Shown here: one piece after another, positions 2,293-8,200 of the stretch
How positions within the stretch are numbered: the stretch's first letter is position 1
Layout: the number at the start of each line of letters is the position of its first letter
Assembly (NCBI RefSeq): GCF_054482595.1
Contig: NZ_CM137008.1
Direction: 5' to 3' (one strand)
Length of the DNA stretch: 64,000 nt
Position numbers: made by a program

Positions 2293-5200
2293 TTAATGGC
2301 GGAGCAAGGAACATCGCCACAATTGCAACCCGGAGAGACTACCAGATGGGACGCAAGCTTGCTGGCAGTCTCATGAAAGAACAGGGGCTGGTCAGCTGTC
2401 AGCCGTTGACCCTCCGGTACAGGCATGGCAGTCATGAACTTGTAGCTATCCTAAGAACTTGAAGGGCGCTTAGCTGTGACACAGCTAAATCAAGTATGGT
2501 GACGTGACCTATATCTGGACTGGTAAACGATGGGGATACCCGCTTACGCGAGAGCAATAAGTGGCTGGCCACCATTCTCGATACAAAACTCTGCTGAATA
2601 GCAGCGATTTTCCCAGCGTGGTGCGTCTTTTGCATTTTACTGGTTCTGAGTTATCAATTATCTGTTCACTAATGACTACTCTAAAAAGTTGTATCAATTT
2701 AAGTGATATAGGGAGTCTGGAGATTCAGGGGGCCAGCCTAGGAACATTGGTTACATTTTTAGTTTCCAAACATTTTATTGTTCGAACTTCGGAGCAATCA
2801 GATTATCCAGATTGAATGTCTTCTCCCATTCTTCCTGTGTGAGTAGCTTACGTTCGACAACCACTATCTGATGGAGGGATTTGCCTGTATGGTATGCTTC
2901 GTGCGCCATTTCAGAACACACCTTATATCCCAGATGTGGCTTCAGGAGAGTCACAATACCGCAGGAATGCATTACCATCTCTGCAGTTCGATCGGAATTA
3001 GCTGTAATGCCATCAATGCATTTAGTTCGGAGTGTGTTACAGGCATTCGTCATCACCTTGAGTGAGGTGAACAGCGCAAAGGTGATGACCGGCTCCATAA
3101 CGTTAAGCTCAAGCTGACCAGCAGATGCCGCCAGCATCACTGTGGTGTCCAGCCCCTGAACCAGGAAGCAAGACTGGTTTGTTACTTCCGGGATAACGGG
3201 GTTAACCTTACCAGGCATAATGGAAGAACCCGGTTGCAATTGAGGCAGGTTAATTTCAGCCAGGCCGCAACGGGGGCCTGAAGCAAGCAGTCGAATGTCA
3301 TTACAAACCTTGGTAAGCTTCACAGAGAGGCTCTTCATGGCCGAACTGAGTGCAACATATGCACCACAGTCGCTTGTGGCAGCGATGAGATCTTCACTGT
3401 TCCTGAAATTAATGCCTGTGATCTGGGCCAGATATTTCACGGCTAAAGCGGGATAATCCGGGTGAGCGGTAACACAGGTACCAATCGCAGTAGCACCAAG
3501 GTTTACAACCCGCAGGTGTTCCTGTGCATTACGGATGACCCGAATTTCATCATTAATTGTAAAACCCCAGCCATGGAACTCCTGGCCGAGAGTCATTGGC
3601 ACTGCATCCTGCAGGTGAGTACGTCCCATCTTGAGCACTGTGCTGAACTCGTCAGCCTTTTTGTAGAATGCTCCTACGAGGTGTTCAACAGCTTCAAGCA
3701 ATACATTGCTTCGCAGCAGTAATGCCAGATGTAATGCTGTCGGATATGTATCATTGGTGGACTGACCAAAATTAGCATGGTCGTTTGGCGAAACGCGTTT
3801 GTAATCCCCTTTAACGCCACCAAGTTTTTCTGCAGCAAGATTGCAAATCACTTCGTTGCAGTTCATATTGGTTGACGTTCCGGCTCCCCCCTGAAGCCAG
3901 TCGGTCACAAACTGTTCCCGGTACTTACCATCAATTAATTGGTCGCAAGCCCAGATTAAAGCATCCGCAACATCAGCAGGAATTGTACCTAACTCCTTAT
4001 TAGCCATCGCAGCTGCTTTTTTCACATAACCGAAGGCAATGATGAAGAAAGGCTCCTGACTCATTGGCATTTCAGTGATATGGAAATTATCTTTTCCACG
4101 AAGTGTCTGAACACCATAATAGCAATCATCCGGAATTTCACGCTCACCAAGGAAATCGCTTTCAATACGAGACATAATATTCTAACTCCATTATTTGAAA
4201 ACAATGTGACAATAACAAATTGTTTAACCGGAGCTATGCTCTCGGAATTTGAATTCTTACATCATTGAAATAACATGTGATATCAATCTGTCAGAATTCT
4301 TCTGACAGTCAGTAACTGAATGCAGATTAACTGCCTGACTAATTATCAAATAGTAACTCTGTAACTACTTCCATAAAGAATGAAAATTATGATTCTATCA
4401 GACCATCATTGGTGCAATCACAAACCCAAATGTCACTCCTGCAATAACACCACCCAACCCGGGTAGCATAAATGGGTGATTTAATAAATAATTGCCCACA
4501 CGGGTTGTGCCGGTAGTATCAAATTCCATCGCGGCGAGTGATGTTGGATACGTTGGAAGCACGAATACTCCCGTAACGGCAACATAAGATGCAAGAATTG
4601 CCCAGGTTGGTATGTTGAGTGCTACAGCCAGAGGAATAATTAACGGCGTAGTCGCTCCCTGTGAGTAAAGTAAAGCGCAGGTAAAAAAAAGAACTAATGC
4701 TAAAAGCATCGGATAAGTTTGTAAAATATCACCGGCGATATCTTTGATCTCAGTTAAATGCGCATCAATAAAGGTGGTACCTAAGGTTACAATACCAAGA
4801 ATCACTGCCAGCGAACTCATTCCAGCACGAAATGTGGAGGTCAGAATAATGTCATCAGTAGACATCTTACACAGTATTACCATCAGGCAGGCAGCAGAGA
4901 GCATGCAAATAATAATAATATCGCGCGTTTCCATCGGTTTGCTGATATCAAAACCCGGACGCAATTGGGGGAATGCAGCAAGAATAACAATGGCGATCGT
5001 CGCCAGCATGAATAATCCGACGGAAAGCGTTGCACCAGGTTTGATGCTGTTATTATTCTCGTATTTTTGCACCAGACCTTTTTGCAGACGTTCAAGATAT
5101 ACTTCGTCATCTTGTAATTCACACCCCTGTCGGGAGGCGATAAAAGCAGCAACCATCGCGGCGACAAAAGAGGTGGGAAGGCATACCGACATCACCTGAA

Positions 5201-8200
5201 TAAAACTGACGCCATTAACCTCCATAATAGTGAGCATAGCTGCCATTGCGGCACTGATTGGTGAGCCAGAAATTGCAACCTGTGAGGCGACAACTGAGCC
5301 AGCGAGTGTGCGGGAAGGCCGGATACCGGACTCTTTTGCTACTTCAGCAATTACCGGCAGTGTGGAGAAAACAATAAACCCGGTACCGGCCATAATGGTC
5401 ATTAACCAAGTGATAATCGGTGCGATTATGTTGATATATTTTGGGTTACGTCGCATGAAATTACTGGCTAAACGTACCAGATAATCCATCCCACCTGCCG
5501 CCTGTAAGGCTGAAGCTGCCACAACTACGGTCATAATAATCAGGATCACATCGACTGGCGGTGATCCCATAGGCAGACCAAATCCCAGAGTCAGGATCGC
5601 AAGGCCAAGACCGCCGCATAAACCAATGCCGATTCCTCCCTGACGAATACCAAAAAATATTGCGCCAAGTACAACGATAATTTCCAGCCAAACCATGATG
5701 TTCTCCGTTGTAAATATAATCTTTGTAAAATAACTTTCTGGCTGTGATTTAGAATTATTGAGTTAAATGTTGATCTTTTCCGATACGATTTTCATACCAT
5801 TTTATTCCTGCGCGAACGAGTGAAGCGGTTGAATCAATATAGCGTAAAGGTTGATCTTTAACGGCTTGTGACAGAATAATGGGAATTTCCGTACAACCAA
5901 GAATCAAGATCTCTGCTCCGCGGGAAAATAAATTTTCAGCCTGCTCTTCCATCAATTTTTGCGCATGTGTAACATTTCCCGCTTTAAGTGAATAAATGCT
6001 TTTCATCACATTTTTTTGGCCATCTGCATCCGGGGTGATATAGTTAAACCCTAACGATTCAATTCCTTTCTGGTATAATCCCATATACAGCGTGGCATCA
6101 GTGGCCAGGAGGCCAATTCTAGTTTTACCACAGACGCGAACTTCATCGACCGTAGTATCTATGATACTTAGTATATCAATATGGCAAGCATCTTTTAGTT
6201 CTTTAAACCAATAGTGTGCGGTATTACAGGGAATAACAATACATTCTGCTCCTGCATCTTCCAGTTTATGCATATAGTCACGCATAACGGGTAAAGGCGA
6301 GAGCCCGTTATGCATTAATGCATCGGTACGGTCAGGAATATCCGGGATAGAAGAAATAATTAAAGGTATATGTTCTTGATCTCGTTGTGCTGCTGTAAAG
6401 GTGACAAATTTATTAAATAAGTCGACAGTGGCGGCCGGCCCCATTCCACCGAGCACACCGATTAAACCTTTCACAATACTTACCTCTCAGAAAATCAATG
6501 CTCATAAACTTAAAAAACCATTTCTCCTTTTTTAACAGTCTCTAAAGGCTATGAGAAATGCAATGATGTACAATGCAATGCAAGACTTGCATGATGTAGT
6601 TTTGCAATATACATGAACCATATACTATTGTTGCATGAAGACCTATCATAATGATGAAAATAAACGCTTTTGGGAGAAGTGTTAAACTGGTTTAGATACA
6701 GAAAACGAATGGATTATGCATAAAACGAATAACTTAAATATGCTATCTGCATTCATTACCCCGGTTTTCGGGGGGTATACTAACTAAAATTTGATAATAC
6801 TTGGATAATAGAAATGAAAAATATAGAGACCAAATGGTTATATGATTTCCTGACACTGGAAGCCTGTCGCAATTTCTGTCAGGCAGCAAAAGATCGTAAC
6901 CTTTCACAACCAGCATTCAGCAGACGAATAAAAGCGTTAGAGTCAGCTATAGGTGTTGTTTTGTTCGATCGTACAACCTCTCCTTTACAATTAACTGAAG
7001 AGGGTAGGCTTTTTCACTCCCAGACACGCAGTTTAGTGCAACAGCTTGAATGCAATCTGAATGAGTTAGGGGGGGATAATTCATTCAATTTGCCTAATAT
7101 TAAGATTGCAGCTGCGCACTCATTATCCCTCAGCATGCTACCTAAACTTCTGCACTCACTCACCACCTTAGGCGGAGACTTTATCTATCATGTTGAGGCT
7201 ATTGATGTCGTCCAGGCCGTAAATACGTTACGAGAAGGGAAGAGTGACTTTATTATTTCATTTCGAGATGAGGAGTTTATGCAATCGCCATTTTGTTGTA
7301 TAAAACTGTTTGAATCTGAGTTGTATCCGGTATGTGCTGCTGATCAACAGGGAAAACCGATTTTCGATCTTACCAATTCACAGGCTCCTTTGCTCGACTA
7401 TACTCCAACTTCTTATATGGGCAGACTGGTTAATCGTCATTTGGCAGAACAGGGAGGGATAGCCGGACACACAATATTGGTATCTTCAATGAGTGAACTA
7501 CTAAAAAATATGGCACTCAATGGACTTGGTATTGCCTGGCTCCCTCTCTGGTCAATCGCGGATGAACTGAACACAAAACGACTTGTGTGTCCGTGGCCTG
7601 CTAAATGGGCAGTGCCTATTCAGGCTTATATTTATCGTATGGATACTCGGCTGAACAAAACGGCTGAACACTTTTGGACGATTTTACGAAATAACATTAA
7701 AGAGAATAGCTAGAAACATCGTGGACAGTTTTTGTTGAGCACGACAAATCCACGTTTTTCTGGGGGTGAAGGGGGGGAATTCGTTAAACTGGATGTCTTT
7801 TGCTTTAATCAGTTCATCTCCTTCAGGATAATTCTGGCCATTGAGATCACTTTGAGAGGTATTTTTTTCTCTTTTCACATAGTAAATAATAACATTGTTT
7901 AATTAATAACAGAAAATATACTAAAATCAATAATTGTAATAATAAATTATTTGTTGTCCCAGATAAGTTAAGTGTCATTAAAATGCTGGACAATCCTCGC
8001 GTAACGGTATTTAATGACTACAGCACGTTCCAGGAAAAGCAGTGGAAGCAAATATTGGTCATTATGTCGAAAACACCGGAAACGTACTCTATATTGTGTA
8101 GTCATTTATTCAAATGACAGCGTATAAACAAATTGATCAGAATCACATTTTTTTGTGAAAATCATTGTCGAGAGGCAACATTTCATAGTAAGTGTATCCT

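What the first reader, a model, noticed from the sequence alone, without database searches (positions are those of the whole stretch)
2775..7713. Aspartate racemase - DcuA-like - aspartase operon with divergent LysR regulator: candidate D-aspartate utilisation module
A PLP-independent racemase with both catalytic cysteine motifs (CNTAH, GCTE) lies directly upstream of a DcuA-type carrier and an aspartase, and a LysR regulator is divergently transcribed with a palindromic T-N11-A box (6578..6592) between them. Racemisation, uptake and deamination to fumarate would allow D-aspartate or a related D-amino acid to be respired. This differs from the canonical aspA-dcuA operon.
Basis: partly seen in the sequence, partly recalled or inferred. 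Interest (0 to 1): 0.7.

Follow-up and report, generated by a model that had tools for sequence, protein, structure and literature searches.

The report
D-aspartate utilisation genes plus extra aspartase

Summary
On the minus strand lie a two-cysteine Asp/Glu-type racemase (5755-6474), a DcuA-family carrier (4398-5696) and an aspartase (2775-4175). A LysR gene (6814-7713) is divergent, and a perfect palindrome ATGCAAGaCTTGCAT sits at 6578-6592.

The LysR-racemase-Dcu core is a diverged allele (79.6/88.3/94.7% aa) of orf7-orf8-orf9 of the Shigella flexneri SRL pathogenicity island. Those genes were shown genetically to confer D-aspartate racemisation and growth on D-aspartate (Henriquez 2020, PMC6980539). 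The paper's cloning primers match the comparison locus exactly.

New here:
- The aspartase is a recent add-on. It is 99.0% identical in DNA to a second copy at 23677-25077, which heads a Sutterellaceae-type aspA-dcuA pair followed by ansB.
- The operator ATGC-N7-GCAT is conserved in 17 of 21 LysR-racemase intergenic regions across three bacterial groups. It also sits upstream of yjiH at the true hypT locus.
- The current PGAP names "cuyB cysteate racemase" and "hypT" are probably over-propagated.
- Racemase-aspartase linkage recurs in three other gene orders.

Full module: 221 of 5426 complete E. coli genomes. Verdict: new variant of a known kind, modest interest.

The parts
5755..6474 (-). 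PLP-independent two-cysteine aspartate racemase (AspR, homologue of SRL orf8), 239 aa, GTG start
   Evidence: It is 88.3% aa identical to the SRL type. Best PDB match is 3S7Z, a Salmonella putative aspartate racemase (E 4e-74). Cys83 (CNTAH), Cys194 (GCTE), Arg49 and Lys164 are invariant. dN/dS against the SRL type is 0.094.
4398..5696 (-). DcuA-family C4-dicarboxylate/aspartate carrier (homologue of SRL orf9), 432 aa
   Evidence: It is 94.7% identical to the SRL type and 49% to K-12 DcuA. dN/dS is 0.041. It lies immediately downstream of the racemase in 21 of the 25 fetched loci whose racemase is at least 53% identical (L002-L030). The exceptions are two Edwardsiella ictaluri genomes, a Citrobacter amalonaticus paralogue at the hypT locus, and a Budvicia contig that ends 227 bp after the racemase.
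2775..4175 (-). Aspartate ammonia-lyase, copy 1, 466 aa, Sutterellaceae type
   Evidence: It is 54% identical to K-12 AspA, 88% to Duodenibacillus AspA and 99.4% aa / 99.0% nt to copy 2. The SS loop GSSIMPGKVNP and the motifs QSTND and GRTHLQDAVP are present.
4176..4225 (-). 50-bp segment upstream of the aspartase that was duplicated together with the CDS (RBS, possibly promoter elements)
   Evidence: Homology to 23627-23676 ends at 4225, and at the other end exactly at the stop codon (2775). Promoter-like hexamers lie at 4218-4190 and 4201-4174, but the number of such hits is not above chance.
4226..4397 (-). Unique AT-rich spacer (the 222-bp Dcu-aspartase gap is 30% GC) with a perfect hairpin/palindrome CTGTCAGAAgaaTTCTGACAG at 4288-4308 and no T-tract
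   Evidence: It has no homologue in any fetched locus, no terminator call, and a fold z-score of -2.1.
6475..6813 (.). Divergent control region between the racemase and the LysR gene
   Evidence: Conserved blocks are embedded in otherwise diverged sequence.
6578..6592 (.). Palindromic LysR recognition site ATGCAAGaCTTGCAT (T-N11-A), placed at about -63 from the inferred racemase transcription start
   Evidence: ATGC-N7-GCAT is conserved in 17 of 21 loci. The position relative to the start site is my inference from the sequence.
6553..6563 (.). Invariant block GAGAAATGCAA. Candidate activation site overlapping a -35-like TTCTCA on the racemase strand
   Evidence: invariant in Escherichia (three alleles), Citrobacter and Providencia. 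The role is inferred.
6529..6538 (-). Conserved TTTAACAG block. On the racemase strand it reads TGTTAAAAA, a candidate extended -10
   Evidence: This is inference from the sequence. The generic promoter scan did not call it.
6714..6730 (.). Conserved block TTATGCAtAAAACGAAT about 85 nt upstream of the LysR start. Candidate second site or LysR promoter element
6814..7713 (+). HypT-like LysR-type regulator (homologue of SRL orf7), 299 aa
   Evidence: It is 79.6% identical to the SRL type and 57% to K-12 HypT. It lacks Cys4, Met123 and Cys150 of HypT. dN/dS is 0.107.
23677..25077 (+). Aspartase copy 2, the other member of the duplicated pair (which copy is the original was not determined)
   Evidence: There are 14 mismatches in 1451 nt and no gaps. 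Within the CDS there are 11 nt and 3 aa differences, dN/dS 0.11.
25233..26567 (+). Sutterellaceae-type DcuA (444 aa), forming a canonical aspA-dcuA pair with copy 2
   Evidence: It is 81.5% and 82.4% identical to Duodenibacillus and Sutterella DcuA and only 44.7% to the module's Dcu.
27055..28101 (+). Extra ansB (L-asparaginase II) copy downstream of aspA-dcuA
   Evidence: It is about 95% nt identical to the native ansB present in all E. coli.

Best explanation
This is a D-aspartate catabolic module.

1. The DcuA-family carrier takes up D-aspartate. It may do so in exchange for a C4-dicarboxylate, as DcuA does for L-aspartate.
2. The two-cysteine, cofactor-independent racemase (Cys83/Cys194) converts D-Asp to L-Asp.
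3. Aspartase deaminates L-Asp to fumarate and ammonium.
4. Fumarate enters the TCA cycle, or is respired to succinate anaerobically.

The divergent HypT-like LysR regulator is proposed to bind the conserved ATGC-N7-GCAT palindrome at about -63. It would contact the conserved GAGAAATGCAA block over the -35 to control the racemase-Dcu transcript. Its effector is unknown, and D-Asp is the obvious candidate.

The core (LysR, racemase, Dcu) is an old, widely distributed unit that normally relies on the host's own aspartase. In this E. coli island lineage a copy of the island's Sutterellaceae-type aspA, with 50 bp of its upstream region, sits behind the carrier gene. This gives a self-contained route from D-Asp to fumarate.

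What is shown and what is inferred:
- Shown for a homologue: the requirement for racemase plus carrier for D-Asp use.
- Shown here: homology, synteny, the duplication, operator conservation and purifying selection.
- Inferred: the substrate of this allele, the transport mode, co-transcription of the aspartase, the promoter geometry and the inducer.
For: Published genetics on the SRL unit (PMC6980539):
- Loss of the island abolishes D-Asp respiration.
- The orf8-orf9 clone restores D-Asp consumption, L-Asp appearance and growth in two species.
- The single genes do not complement.

L002 is that unit. All four long primers match it 100%, the exact proteins carry Shigella flexneri names, and it is 99.9% identical to O104:H4 strains. 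The window proteins are 88.3% (racemase), 94.7% (Dcu) and 79.6% (LysR) identical to it. dN/dS is 0.04-0.11.

Catalytic and substrate residues are invariant.

The LysR <-> racemase-Dcu arrangement is conserved in Escherichia, Citrobacter, Budvicia, Providencia, Mannheimia, Rodentibacter and Pasteurella.

Racemase-aspartase linkage occurs in three further gene orders:
- Campylobacteraceae: aspA-dcuA-racemase-asparaginase.
- Betaproteobacterial MAG: LysR <-> racemase-frdCAB-aspA.
- Paenibacillus: LysR-gltP-racemase-aspA-malic enzyme.

The aspartase is of the type that serves as aspA in aspA-dcuA pairs next to frdAB in Sutterellaceae. Operator conservation is shown.
Against: - No enzyme or growth assay exists for this allele, and dS against the tested allele is about 0.69.
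- The published racemase activity was measured in culture supernatants, not with purified enzyme, and transport was never measured.
- NCBIfam's cysteate-racemase equivalog model scores the protein above its cut-off (250 against 190).
- The aspartase is separated from the carrier gene by 222 AT-rich bp carrying promoter-like hexamers and a strong hairpin. It arrived with its own upstream 50 bp, so it may be transcribed independently.
- The published orf8-orf9 clone worked without the LysR gene, so the regulator is not strictly required at high copy number.
Confidence: 0.8

Rival explanations
1. The racemase is a cysteate racemase (CuyB), as current PGAP annotation names many copies, and the module handles L/D-cysteate or another sulfonated aspartate analogue rather than aspartate.
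For: NF052483 racemase_CuyB, an equivalog model, scores 250.4 bits against a cut-off of 190 and outranks TIGR00035. RefSeq labels many copies 'cuyB: cysteate racemase'. BwCuyB belongs to the same PF01177 aspartate-racemase family, and its test on aspartate is not reported in the section I read.
Against: The same model scores the biochemically and structurally defined Pyrococcus horikoshii aspartate racemase (1JFL) at 235.6 bits, also above the cut-off. It therefore does not separate Asp racemases from cysteate racemases. No CuyA / D-cysteine-desulfhydrase-like gene is annotated in the island. CuyB is defined by its association with CuyA. The 88%-identical allele gives a D-Asp-specific Biolog phenotype. 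The repeated partners are aspartase, asparaginase, fumarate reductase and Dcu/GltP carriers.
Confidence: 0.06
2. The three minus-strand genes are not one functional operon. The racemase-Dcu pair is the real unit, and the aspartase is a passenger of IS-mediated island rearrangement, expressed on its own (or not at all) and redundant with copy 2 and the housekeeping aspA.
For: The SRL-type and M11-type alleles and all other Enterobacterales and Pasteurellaceae loci lack an adjacent aspartase. The aspartase is a 99.0% nt duplicate that carries its own 50 bp upstream. An IS-end-like 37-mer lies about 40 bp past its stop, followed by IS3 remnants. The 222-bp spacer has promoter-like hexamers and a hairpin.
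Against: Both aspartase copies remain intact with dN/dS 0.11. Orientation is co-linear and no terminator is predicted in the spacer. The arrangement is kept in about 221 complete genomes. Racemase-aspartase adjacency evolved independently elsewhere.
Confidence: 0.3
3. The module works in the other direction. It makes D-aspartate from L-aspartate (for cell-wall, signalling or export purposes) and the carrier exports it.
For: Racemases are reversible. D-Asp is a cell-wall component in some Gram-positive bacteria (from my own knowledge). In Campylobacter fetus a racemase gene sits in an LOS locus.
Against: The homologous unit lowers external D-Asp and supports growth on it. The linked genes are catabolic: aspartase, fumarate reductase, malic enzyme and asparaginase. 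E. coli peptidoglycan has no D-Asp (from my own knowledge).
Confidence: 0.03

Closest known systems
SRL pathogenicity island orf7-orf8-orf9 (LysR, AspR, DcuA) of Shigella flexneri YSH6000, also present in E. coli O104:H4 (Henriquez et al. 2020, PMC6980539; reviewed in PMC7545054)
   Same: Same three genes, order and divergent layout. Identities are 79.6%, 88.3% and 94.7% aa. The operator blocks are conserved. The location is an IS-rich genomic island.
   Different: It is a distinct allele lineage (dS about 0.69). It has an aspartase gene behind the carrier, where the SRL type runs into an IS600 fragment. It occurs in a different island, at the tRNA-Asn cluster, together with a second aspA-dcuA-ansB set.
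Canonical aspA-dcuA operon of E. coli and other bacteria (L-aspartate uptake and deamination; the role of DcuA as an L-Asp/C4-dicarboxylate exchanger is from my own knowledge)
   Same: It pairs an aspartase with a DcuA-family carrier, and fumarate is the product.
   Different: Gene order is reversed (racemase-dcu-aspA). The carrier is only 49% and the aspartase 54% identical to the K-12 proteins. A racemase and a LysR regulator are added. A canonical-order aspA-dcuA pair of Sutterellaceae type lies separately at 23677-26567.
CuyB-CuyA cysteate pathway of Bilophila wadsworthia (PMC11193023)
   Same: It uses a racemase of the same PF01177 family together with a carrier, and the amino-acid substrate carries an anionic side chain. 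The NCBIfam CuyB model matches the window protein.
   Different: No CuyA sulfo-lyase is present. The partner lyase is an aspartase, and the carrier is Dcu rather than SDF. The HMM is not discriminating.
HypT (YjiE), the hypochlorite-responsive LysR regulator of E. coli (PMC3792123)
   Same: Identity is 57% over the full length. The protein passes the NCBIfam HypT cut-off. The same ATGC-N7-GCAT motif lies upstream of yjiH at the hypT locus. True hypT in Citrobacter is adjacent to a paralogous Asp racemase.
   Different: It is a paralogue, not the orthologue: the Citrobacter orthologue is 83% identical to K-12 HypT. It lacks Cys4, Met123 and Cys150 (residue roles). It is divergent from a racemase-dcu operon rather than last in yjiH-yjiG-iadA-hypT.
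dsdCXA D-serine locus of E. coli (from my own knowledge): a LysR regulator divergent from a transporter and a D-amino-acid-degrading enzyme
   Same: Same logic: a strain-variable D-amino-acid detoxification and utilisation locus with a LysR regulator, a carrier and an enzyme.
   Different: The protein families are unrelated. D-serine is deaminated directly, whereas here the D-amino acid is racemised and fed into the L-pathway.

Membership tests
SRL-type AspR-DcuA D-aspartate utilisation unit | Racemase homologous to SRL orf8 with the carrier homologous to orf9 immediately downstream | tested here: met
   88.3% and 94.7% aa identity to L002, with a 58-bp gap. L002 was verified as the published unit by exact primer matches.
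SRL-type AspR-DcuA D-aspartate utilisation unit | Divergent LysR gene (orf7) with a shared control region | tested here: met
   79.6% aa identity. The operator blocks are conserved.
SRL-type AspR-DcuA D-aspartate utilisation unit | Confers D-Asp consumption, D-to-L conversion and growth on D-Asp | not testable with these tools
   Shown only for the SRL allele.
PLP-independent aspartate racemase (PF01177, two-base mechanism) | Two catalytic cysteines in the CNTAH and GCTE motifs | tested here: met
   Cys83 and Cys194 are invariant in 11 homologues and align with the P. horikoshii AspR motifs.
PLP-independent aspartate racemase (PF01177, two-base mechanism) | Basic residues equivalent to PhAspR Arg48 and Lys164 (side-chain carboxylate binding; this role is from my own knowledge) | tested here: met
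   Arg49 (PDRT) and Lys164 (LKAGN) are invariant.
PLP-independent aspartate racemase (PF01177, two-base mechanism) | Racemase activity on aspartate | not testable with these tools
   Only indirect culture-supernatant data exist, for the 88% homologue.
Cysteate racemase CuyB (NCBIfam NF052483) | HMM score above the curated cut-off | tested here: inconclusive
   250.4 bits against 190, but the genuine aspartate racemase 1JFL scores 235.6.
Cysteate racemase CuyB (NCBIfam NF052483) | Genomic association with the D-cysteate sulfo-lyase CuyA | tested here: not met
   No such gene is annotated in the island. The neighbours are Dcu, aspartase and LysR.
HypT (hypochlorite-specific LysR regulator) | HMM score above the curated cut-off | tested here: met
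   NF007488 383.9 bits against 301.
HypT (hypochlorite-specific LysR regulator) | Met123, Met206 and Met230 (activation by oxidation) plus Cys4 and Cys150 (PMC3792123) | tested here: not met
   In the alignment, Met123 is replaced by Leu, Cys150 by Phe, and the N-terminal segment with Cys4 is absent. Only Met206 and Met230 are kept.
HypT (hypochlorite-specific LysR regulator) | Orthologous position at the end of yjiH-yjiG-iadA-hypT | tested here: not met
   57% identity, against 83% for the Citrobacter orthologue, and a different neighbourhood.
Aspartate ammonia-lyase (aspartase/fumarase superfamily) | Family HMMs and the signature SS loop GSSxMPxKxN | tested here: met
   NF008909 680 bits against 510. 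TIGR00839 scores 645, just under its 681 cut-off. GSSIMPGKVNP is present. The same near-miss is seen for the betaproteobacterial aspA (678.7).
Aspartate ammonia-lyase (aspartase/fumarase superfamily) | Closest relatives serve as the aspA gene of aspA-dcuA operons | tested here: met
   88% to Duodenibacillus and 80% to Sutterella, in both cases in aspA-dcuA pairs next to frdAB.
Canonical aspA-dcuA operon | Gene order aspA then dcuA, with no racemase | tested here: not met
   The module reads racemase-dcu-aspA. The canonical order is found only in the second cluster, 23677-26567.

The most novel reading that the evidence does not exclude
HypT-family LysR regulators may be, by origin, regulators of damaged or D-form aspartate metabolism, recognising an ATGC-N7-GCAT operator. 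The paralogue here would control D-Asp uptake and racemisation. E. coli HypT itself would control its own yjiH-yjiG-iadA-hypT operon (isoaspartyl dipeptidase), with hypochlorite sensing layered on top.

In parallel, this tRNA-Asn island would be a purpose-built aspartate, asparagine and isoaspartyl scavenging island. It combines Sutterellaceae-type aspA-dcuA, an extra ansB, a beta-aspartyl peptidase homologue, dcuC-pepT and further Dcu carriers. The aspA duplication would be a caught-in-the-act case of operon assembly.
Probability: 0.25. Interest if true: 0.55.

Novelty: new variant of a known kind. Interest (0 to 1): 0.3.

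Why it matters
D-aspartate is present in the gut, in food and in soil, and is reported to be toxic to bacteria that cannot remove it (PMC6980539). A mobile module that turns it into fumarate and ammonium could be a niche or fitness factor.

About 11% of complete E. coli genomes carry some form of the unit, and 4% carry this aspartase-linked form. Several of the listed best matches are poultry isolates. The locus also gives three practical results:
- The database names 'cuyB cysteate racemase' and 'hypT' are probably mis-propagated for these genes.
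- There is a testable operator motif for the poorly defined HypT family.
- A clear recent example shows a catabolic operon being extended by duplication of a horizontally acquired gene.

Tried and rejected
- FNR-box search (TTGAT-N4-ATCAA, up to 2 mismatches): no site in the 4176-4397 spacer and only one weak hit in the divergent region. The window-wide count is not above chance.
- Generic promoter and terminator scan of 2400-8000: counts equal the shuffled expectation. There is no terminator between the three genes, and the scan did not call the promoter I infer by eye.
- Rfam scan: no RNA family within 2775-7713.
- Origin of the 172-bp spacer and of the aspartase flanks: no similarity to any fetched locus. 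Homology to Duodenibacillus DNA is confined to the coding sequence (74.7% nt; GC3 47% against 83%). The donor is therefore not a sampled Sutterellaceae genome, or the transfer is old.
- Literature searches for STM4510 with aspartate racemase, and for aspartase with D-aspartate and racemase in E. coli, found nothing. I found no paper describing the aspartase-linked form.
- I first mapped island genes through ECCWS199 coordinates and obtained nonsense identities. The window differs structurally from that genome beyond about 16.4 kb. Coordinates were redone.
- The CuyB reading was considered and set aside (see rivals).
- Structure prediction was not run, because a 62%-identical solved structure exists.

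Full report
**What is there.**
The window is E. coli genomic-island DNA. Bases 2500-8000 are 100% identical to the chicken isolate ECCWS199, and the region is bounded by IS3, IS66 and IS200 remnants. The minus strand carries three intact genes:
- a racemase, 5755-6474, 239 aa, GTG start;
- a Dcu carrier, 4398-5696, 432 aa;
- an aspartase, 2775-4175, 466 aa.

A LysR gene (6814-7713, 299 aa) is divergent across a 339-bp region.

Family assignments are clear. The aspartase scores 680 bits on NF008909 (cut-off 510) and 645 on the TIGR00839 equivalog, just under its 681 cut-off. The carrier scores 588 bits on NF006927 (cut-off 369). The racemase scores 194 bits on TIGR00035 (cut-off 93). The racemase has CNTAH (Cys83) and GCTE (Cys194). 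Arg49 and Lys164 correspond to Arg48 and Lys164 of the Pyrococcus enzyme. All are invariant in 11 homologues. Positions 6578-6592 read ATGCAAGaCTTGCAT.

**What it is.**
A literature search found Henriquez et al. 2020 (PMC6980539).
- The Shigella flexneri SRL pathogenicity island carries orf7 (LysR), orf8 (aspartate racemase) and orf9 (DcuA-like).
- Loss of the island abolishes D-aspartate respiration.
- An orf8-orf9 clone restores D-Asp consumption, appearance of L-Asp and growth on D-Asp in S. flexneri and S. sonnei.
- Neither gene alone does so.

A second E. coli allele (locus L002) is that published unit. The paper's four long primers match it without mismatch at the expected places. Its exact proteins carry Shigella flexneri names. 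It is 99.9% identical to O104:H4 strains, which the paper names as carriers.

The window proteins are 88.3% (racemase), 94.7% (carrier) and 79.6% (LysR) identical to L002. dS is about 0.69 and dN/dS 0.04-0.11. This is a separate, selectively maintained lineage of the same unit.

In complete E. coli genomes:
- the SRL type is present in about 348-355;
- the window type in 221;
- a third type in a few;
- 586 of 5426 carry some form.

**Conservation of the core.**
Context look-ups and a scan of species-representative genomes show LysR <-> racemase-Dcu in E. albertii, several Citrobacter species, Budvicia, Providencia, Mannheimia, Rodentibacter and Pasteurella. None of these has an adjacent aspartase. 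The SRL and M11 alleles run into IS elements right after the carrier. The core evidently relies on the host's own aspartase.

Racemase-aspartase linkage does occur in three other gene orders:
- aspA-dcuA-racemase-asparaginase in a Campylobacteraceae genome;
- LysR <-> racemase-frdC-frdA-frdB-aspA in a betaproteobacterial MAG;
- LysR-gltP-racemase-aspA-malic enzyme in Paenibacillus.

**The aspartase is a recent add-on.**
It is only 54% identical to K-12 AspA. It is 88% identical to Duodenibacillus and about 80% to Sutterella AspA, where the gene heads aspA-dcuA pairs next to fumarate reductase genes.

Inside the same window a second copy lies at 23677-25077. It differs by 14 mismatches in 1451 nt with no gaps, and by 3 amino acids. 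The shared segment runs from 50 bp upstream of the start codon exactly to the stop codon.

The second copy is followed by a DcuA that is 82% identical to the Sutterellaceae DcuA, and then by an extra ansB. This cluster is found in 222 genomes, essentially the same number as the module.

So a horizontally acquired aspA-dcuA pair and the AspR-DcuA unit came together in one island, and the two aspA copies are a recent duplicate pair. Since every other allele of the unit lacks an aspartase, the copy behind the racemase-carrier pair is most likely the derived one.

The 172 bp between the carrier gene and the duplicated segment are unique. The 222-bp gap as a whole is AT-rich (30% GC). It contains a perfect hairpin (4288-4308) without a T-tract and promoter-like hexamers. 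Co-transcription of the aspartase is therefore open.

**Regulation.**
The palindrome alone is not statistically remarkable, since 14% of shuffles produce one. However, ATGC-N7-GCAT is present in the LysR-racemase intergenic region of 17 of 21 loci from three bacterial groups. In a five-genus alignment it is flanked by two further conserved blocks, GAGAAATGCAA and TTTAACAG.

Read on the racemase strand, these fit a -35-like TTCTCA and an extended -10 TGTTAAAAA. That places the palindrome near -63 and the second block over the -35, the usual LysR activator geometry. This geometry is my inference from the sequence and is not tested.

The published clone contained these sites but not the LysR gene. 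The regulator is thus dispensable at high copy number, or the host supplies a substitute.

**Annotation issues.**
RefSeq labels many copies 'cuyB: cysteate racemase' and 'hypT'. The CuyB model also scores the genuine P. horikoshii aspartate racemase above its cut-off (235.6 against 190). No CuyA gene is present.

The LysR is 57% identical to K-12 HypT and lacks Cys4, Met123 and Cys150. The true orthologue in Citrobacter is 83% identical. Both labels look over-propagated.

**A by-product.**
In Citrobacter the true hypT locus (yjiH-yjiG-iadA-hypT) is directly adjacent to a paralogous Asp racemase of the Salmonella 3S7Z type. The only ATGC-N7-GCAT match in 12 kb around K-12 hypT lies 116 nt upstream of yjiH. 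Matching sites occur at the same place in two Citrobacter loci and upstream of the Edwardsiella racemase. This suggests a family-wide operator and an old link between HypT-type regulators and aspartate metabolism.

**Verdict.**
The new elements are the aspartase-linked architecture and how it arose, the conserved operator, the wide distribution, and the probable misannotations. I class it as a new variant of a known kind, of modest interest.

Noticed in passing
window 23677-28101: A second aspartase copy (99.0% nt identical to the module's) heads a Sutterellaceae-type aspA-dcuA pair (DcuA 82% identical to Sutterella), followed by an extra ansB about 95% identical to the native gene. The cluster is in 222 of 5426 complete E. 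coli genomes.
   Followed up: yes
window 17550-35294: The island is dense in aspartate, asparagine and C4-dicarboxylate genes. It has a beta-aspartyl-peptidase homologue (17550-18554, below the NF007589 cut-off) and dcuC-pepT (20197-22811). It also has an orphan dcuR (28695-29420), a GntR regulator (30399-31055) and two divergent 438-aa Dcu-family carriers (32546-33862 and 33978-35294).
   Followed up: partly
L012 (K-12) 7797-7811; L017 11166; L031 10165; L006 6731: The operator-like motif ATGC-N7-GCAT occurs once in 12 kb around K-12 hypT, 116 nt upstream of yjiH, the first gene of yjiH-yjiG-iadA-hypT. It occurs at the equivalent place in two Citrobacter loci and upstream of the Edwardsiella racemase. 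This is a candidate HypT-family binding site.
   Followed up: partly
L017 7001-11112 (Citrobacter amalonaticus): A paralogous Asp racemase (Salmonella 3S7Z type, 54% identical to the window's) lies convergent and 8 bp from the true hypT orthologue (83% to K-12 HypT). That gene ends the yjiH-yjiG-iadA-hypT cluster. In K-12 iraD occupies this position.
   Followed up: partly
window 47648-47723, 50057-50132, 51881-51956: Three tRNA-Asn genes flank nac, cbl and yeeO. The island lies beside the asn-tRNA cluster and cobUST, a classic island integration region.
   Followed up: no
window 8840-12135 and about 8284-8873: A dgoT gene truncated by an IS200/IS605 remnant (Rfam STnc490 at 8284-8407) is followed by intact dgoD, dgoA and dgoK inside the island.
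   Followed up: no
window 16426-17194, 31171-32503, 35931-41234, 58004-58771: The window differs structurally from ECCWS199. An IS1-like copy replaces about 8 kb, and there are a 1.3-kb insertion and a 5.3-kb extra segment. Bases 23400-28200 are 100% identical to another chicken isolate, NZ_CP033635.1.
   Followed up: partly
window 14049-14171 and 19589-19877: There is an isrC Hfq-binding sRNA match (150 bits) and group II intron domain fragments next to a maturase remnant.
   Followed up: no
window 17-1231: A 404-aa fusion of a DeoR/AgaR-type HTH domain with a ribokinase-like PfkB kinase. It is annotated as a PfkB carbohydrate kinase and sits next to glutamine amidotransferase, DMT transporter and phosphotriesterase-related genes in ECCWS199.
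   Followed up: no
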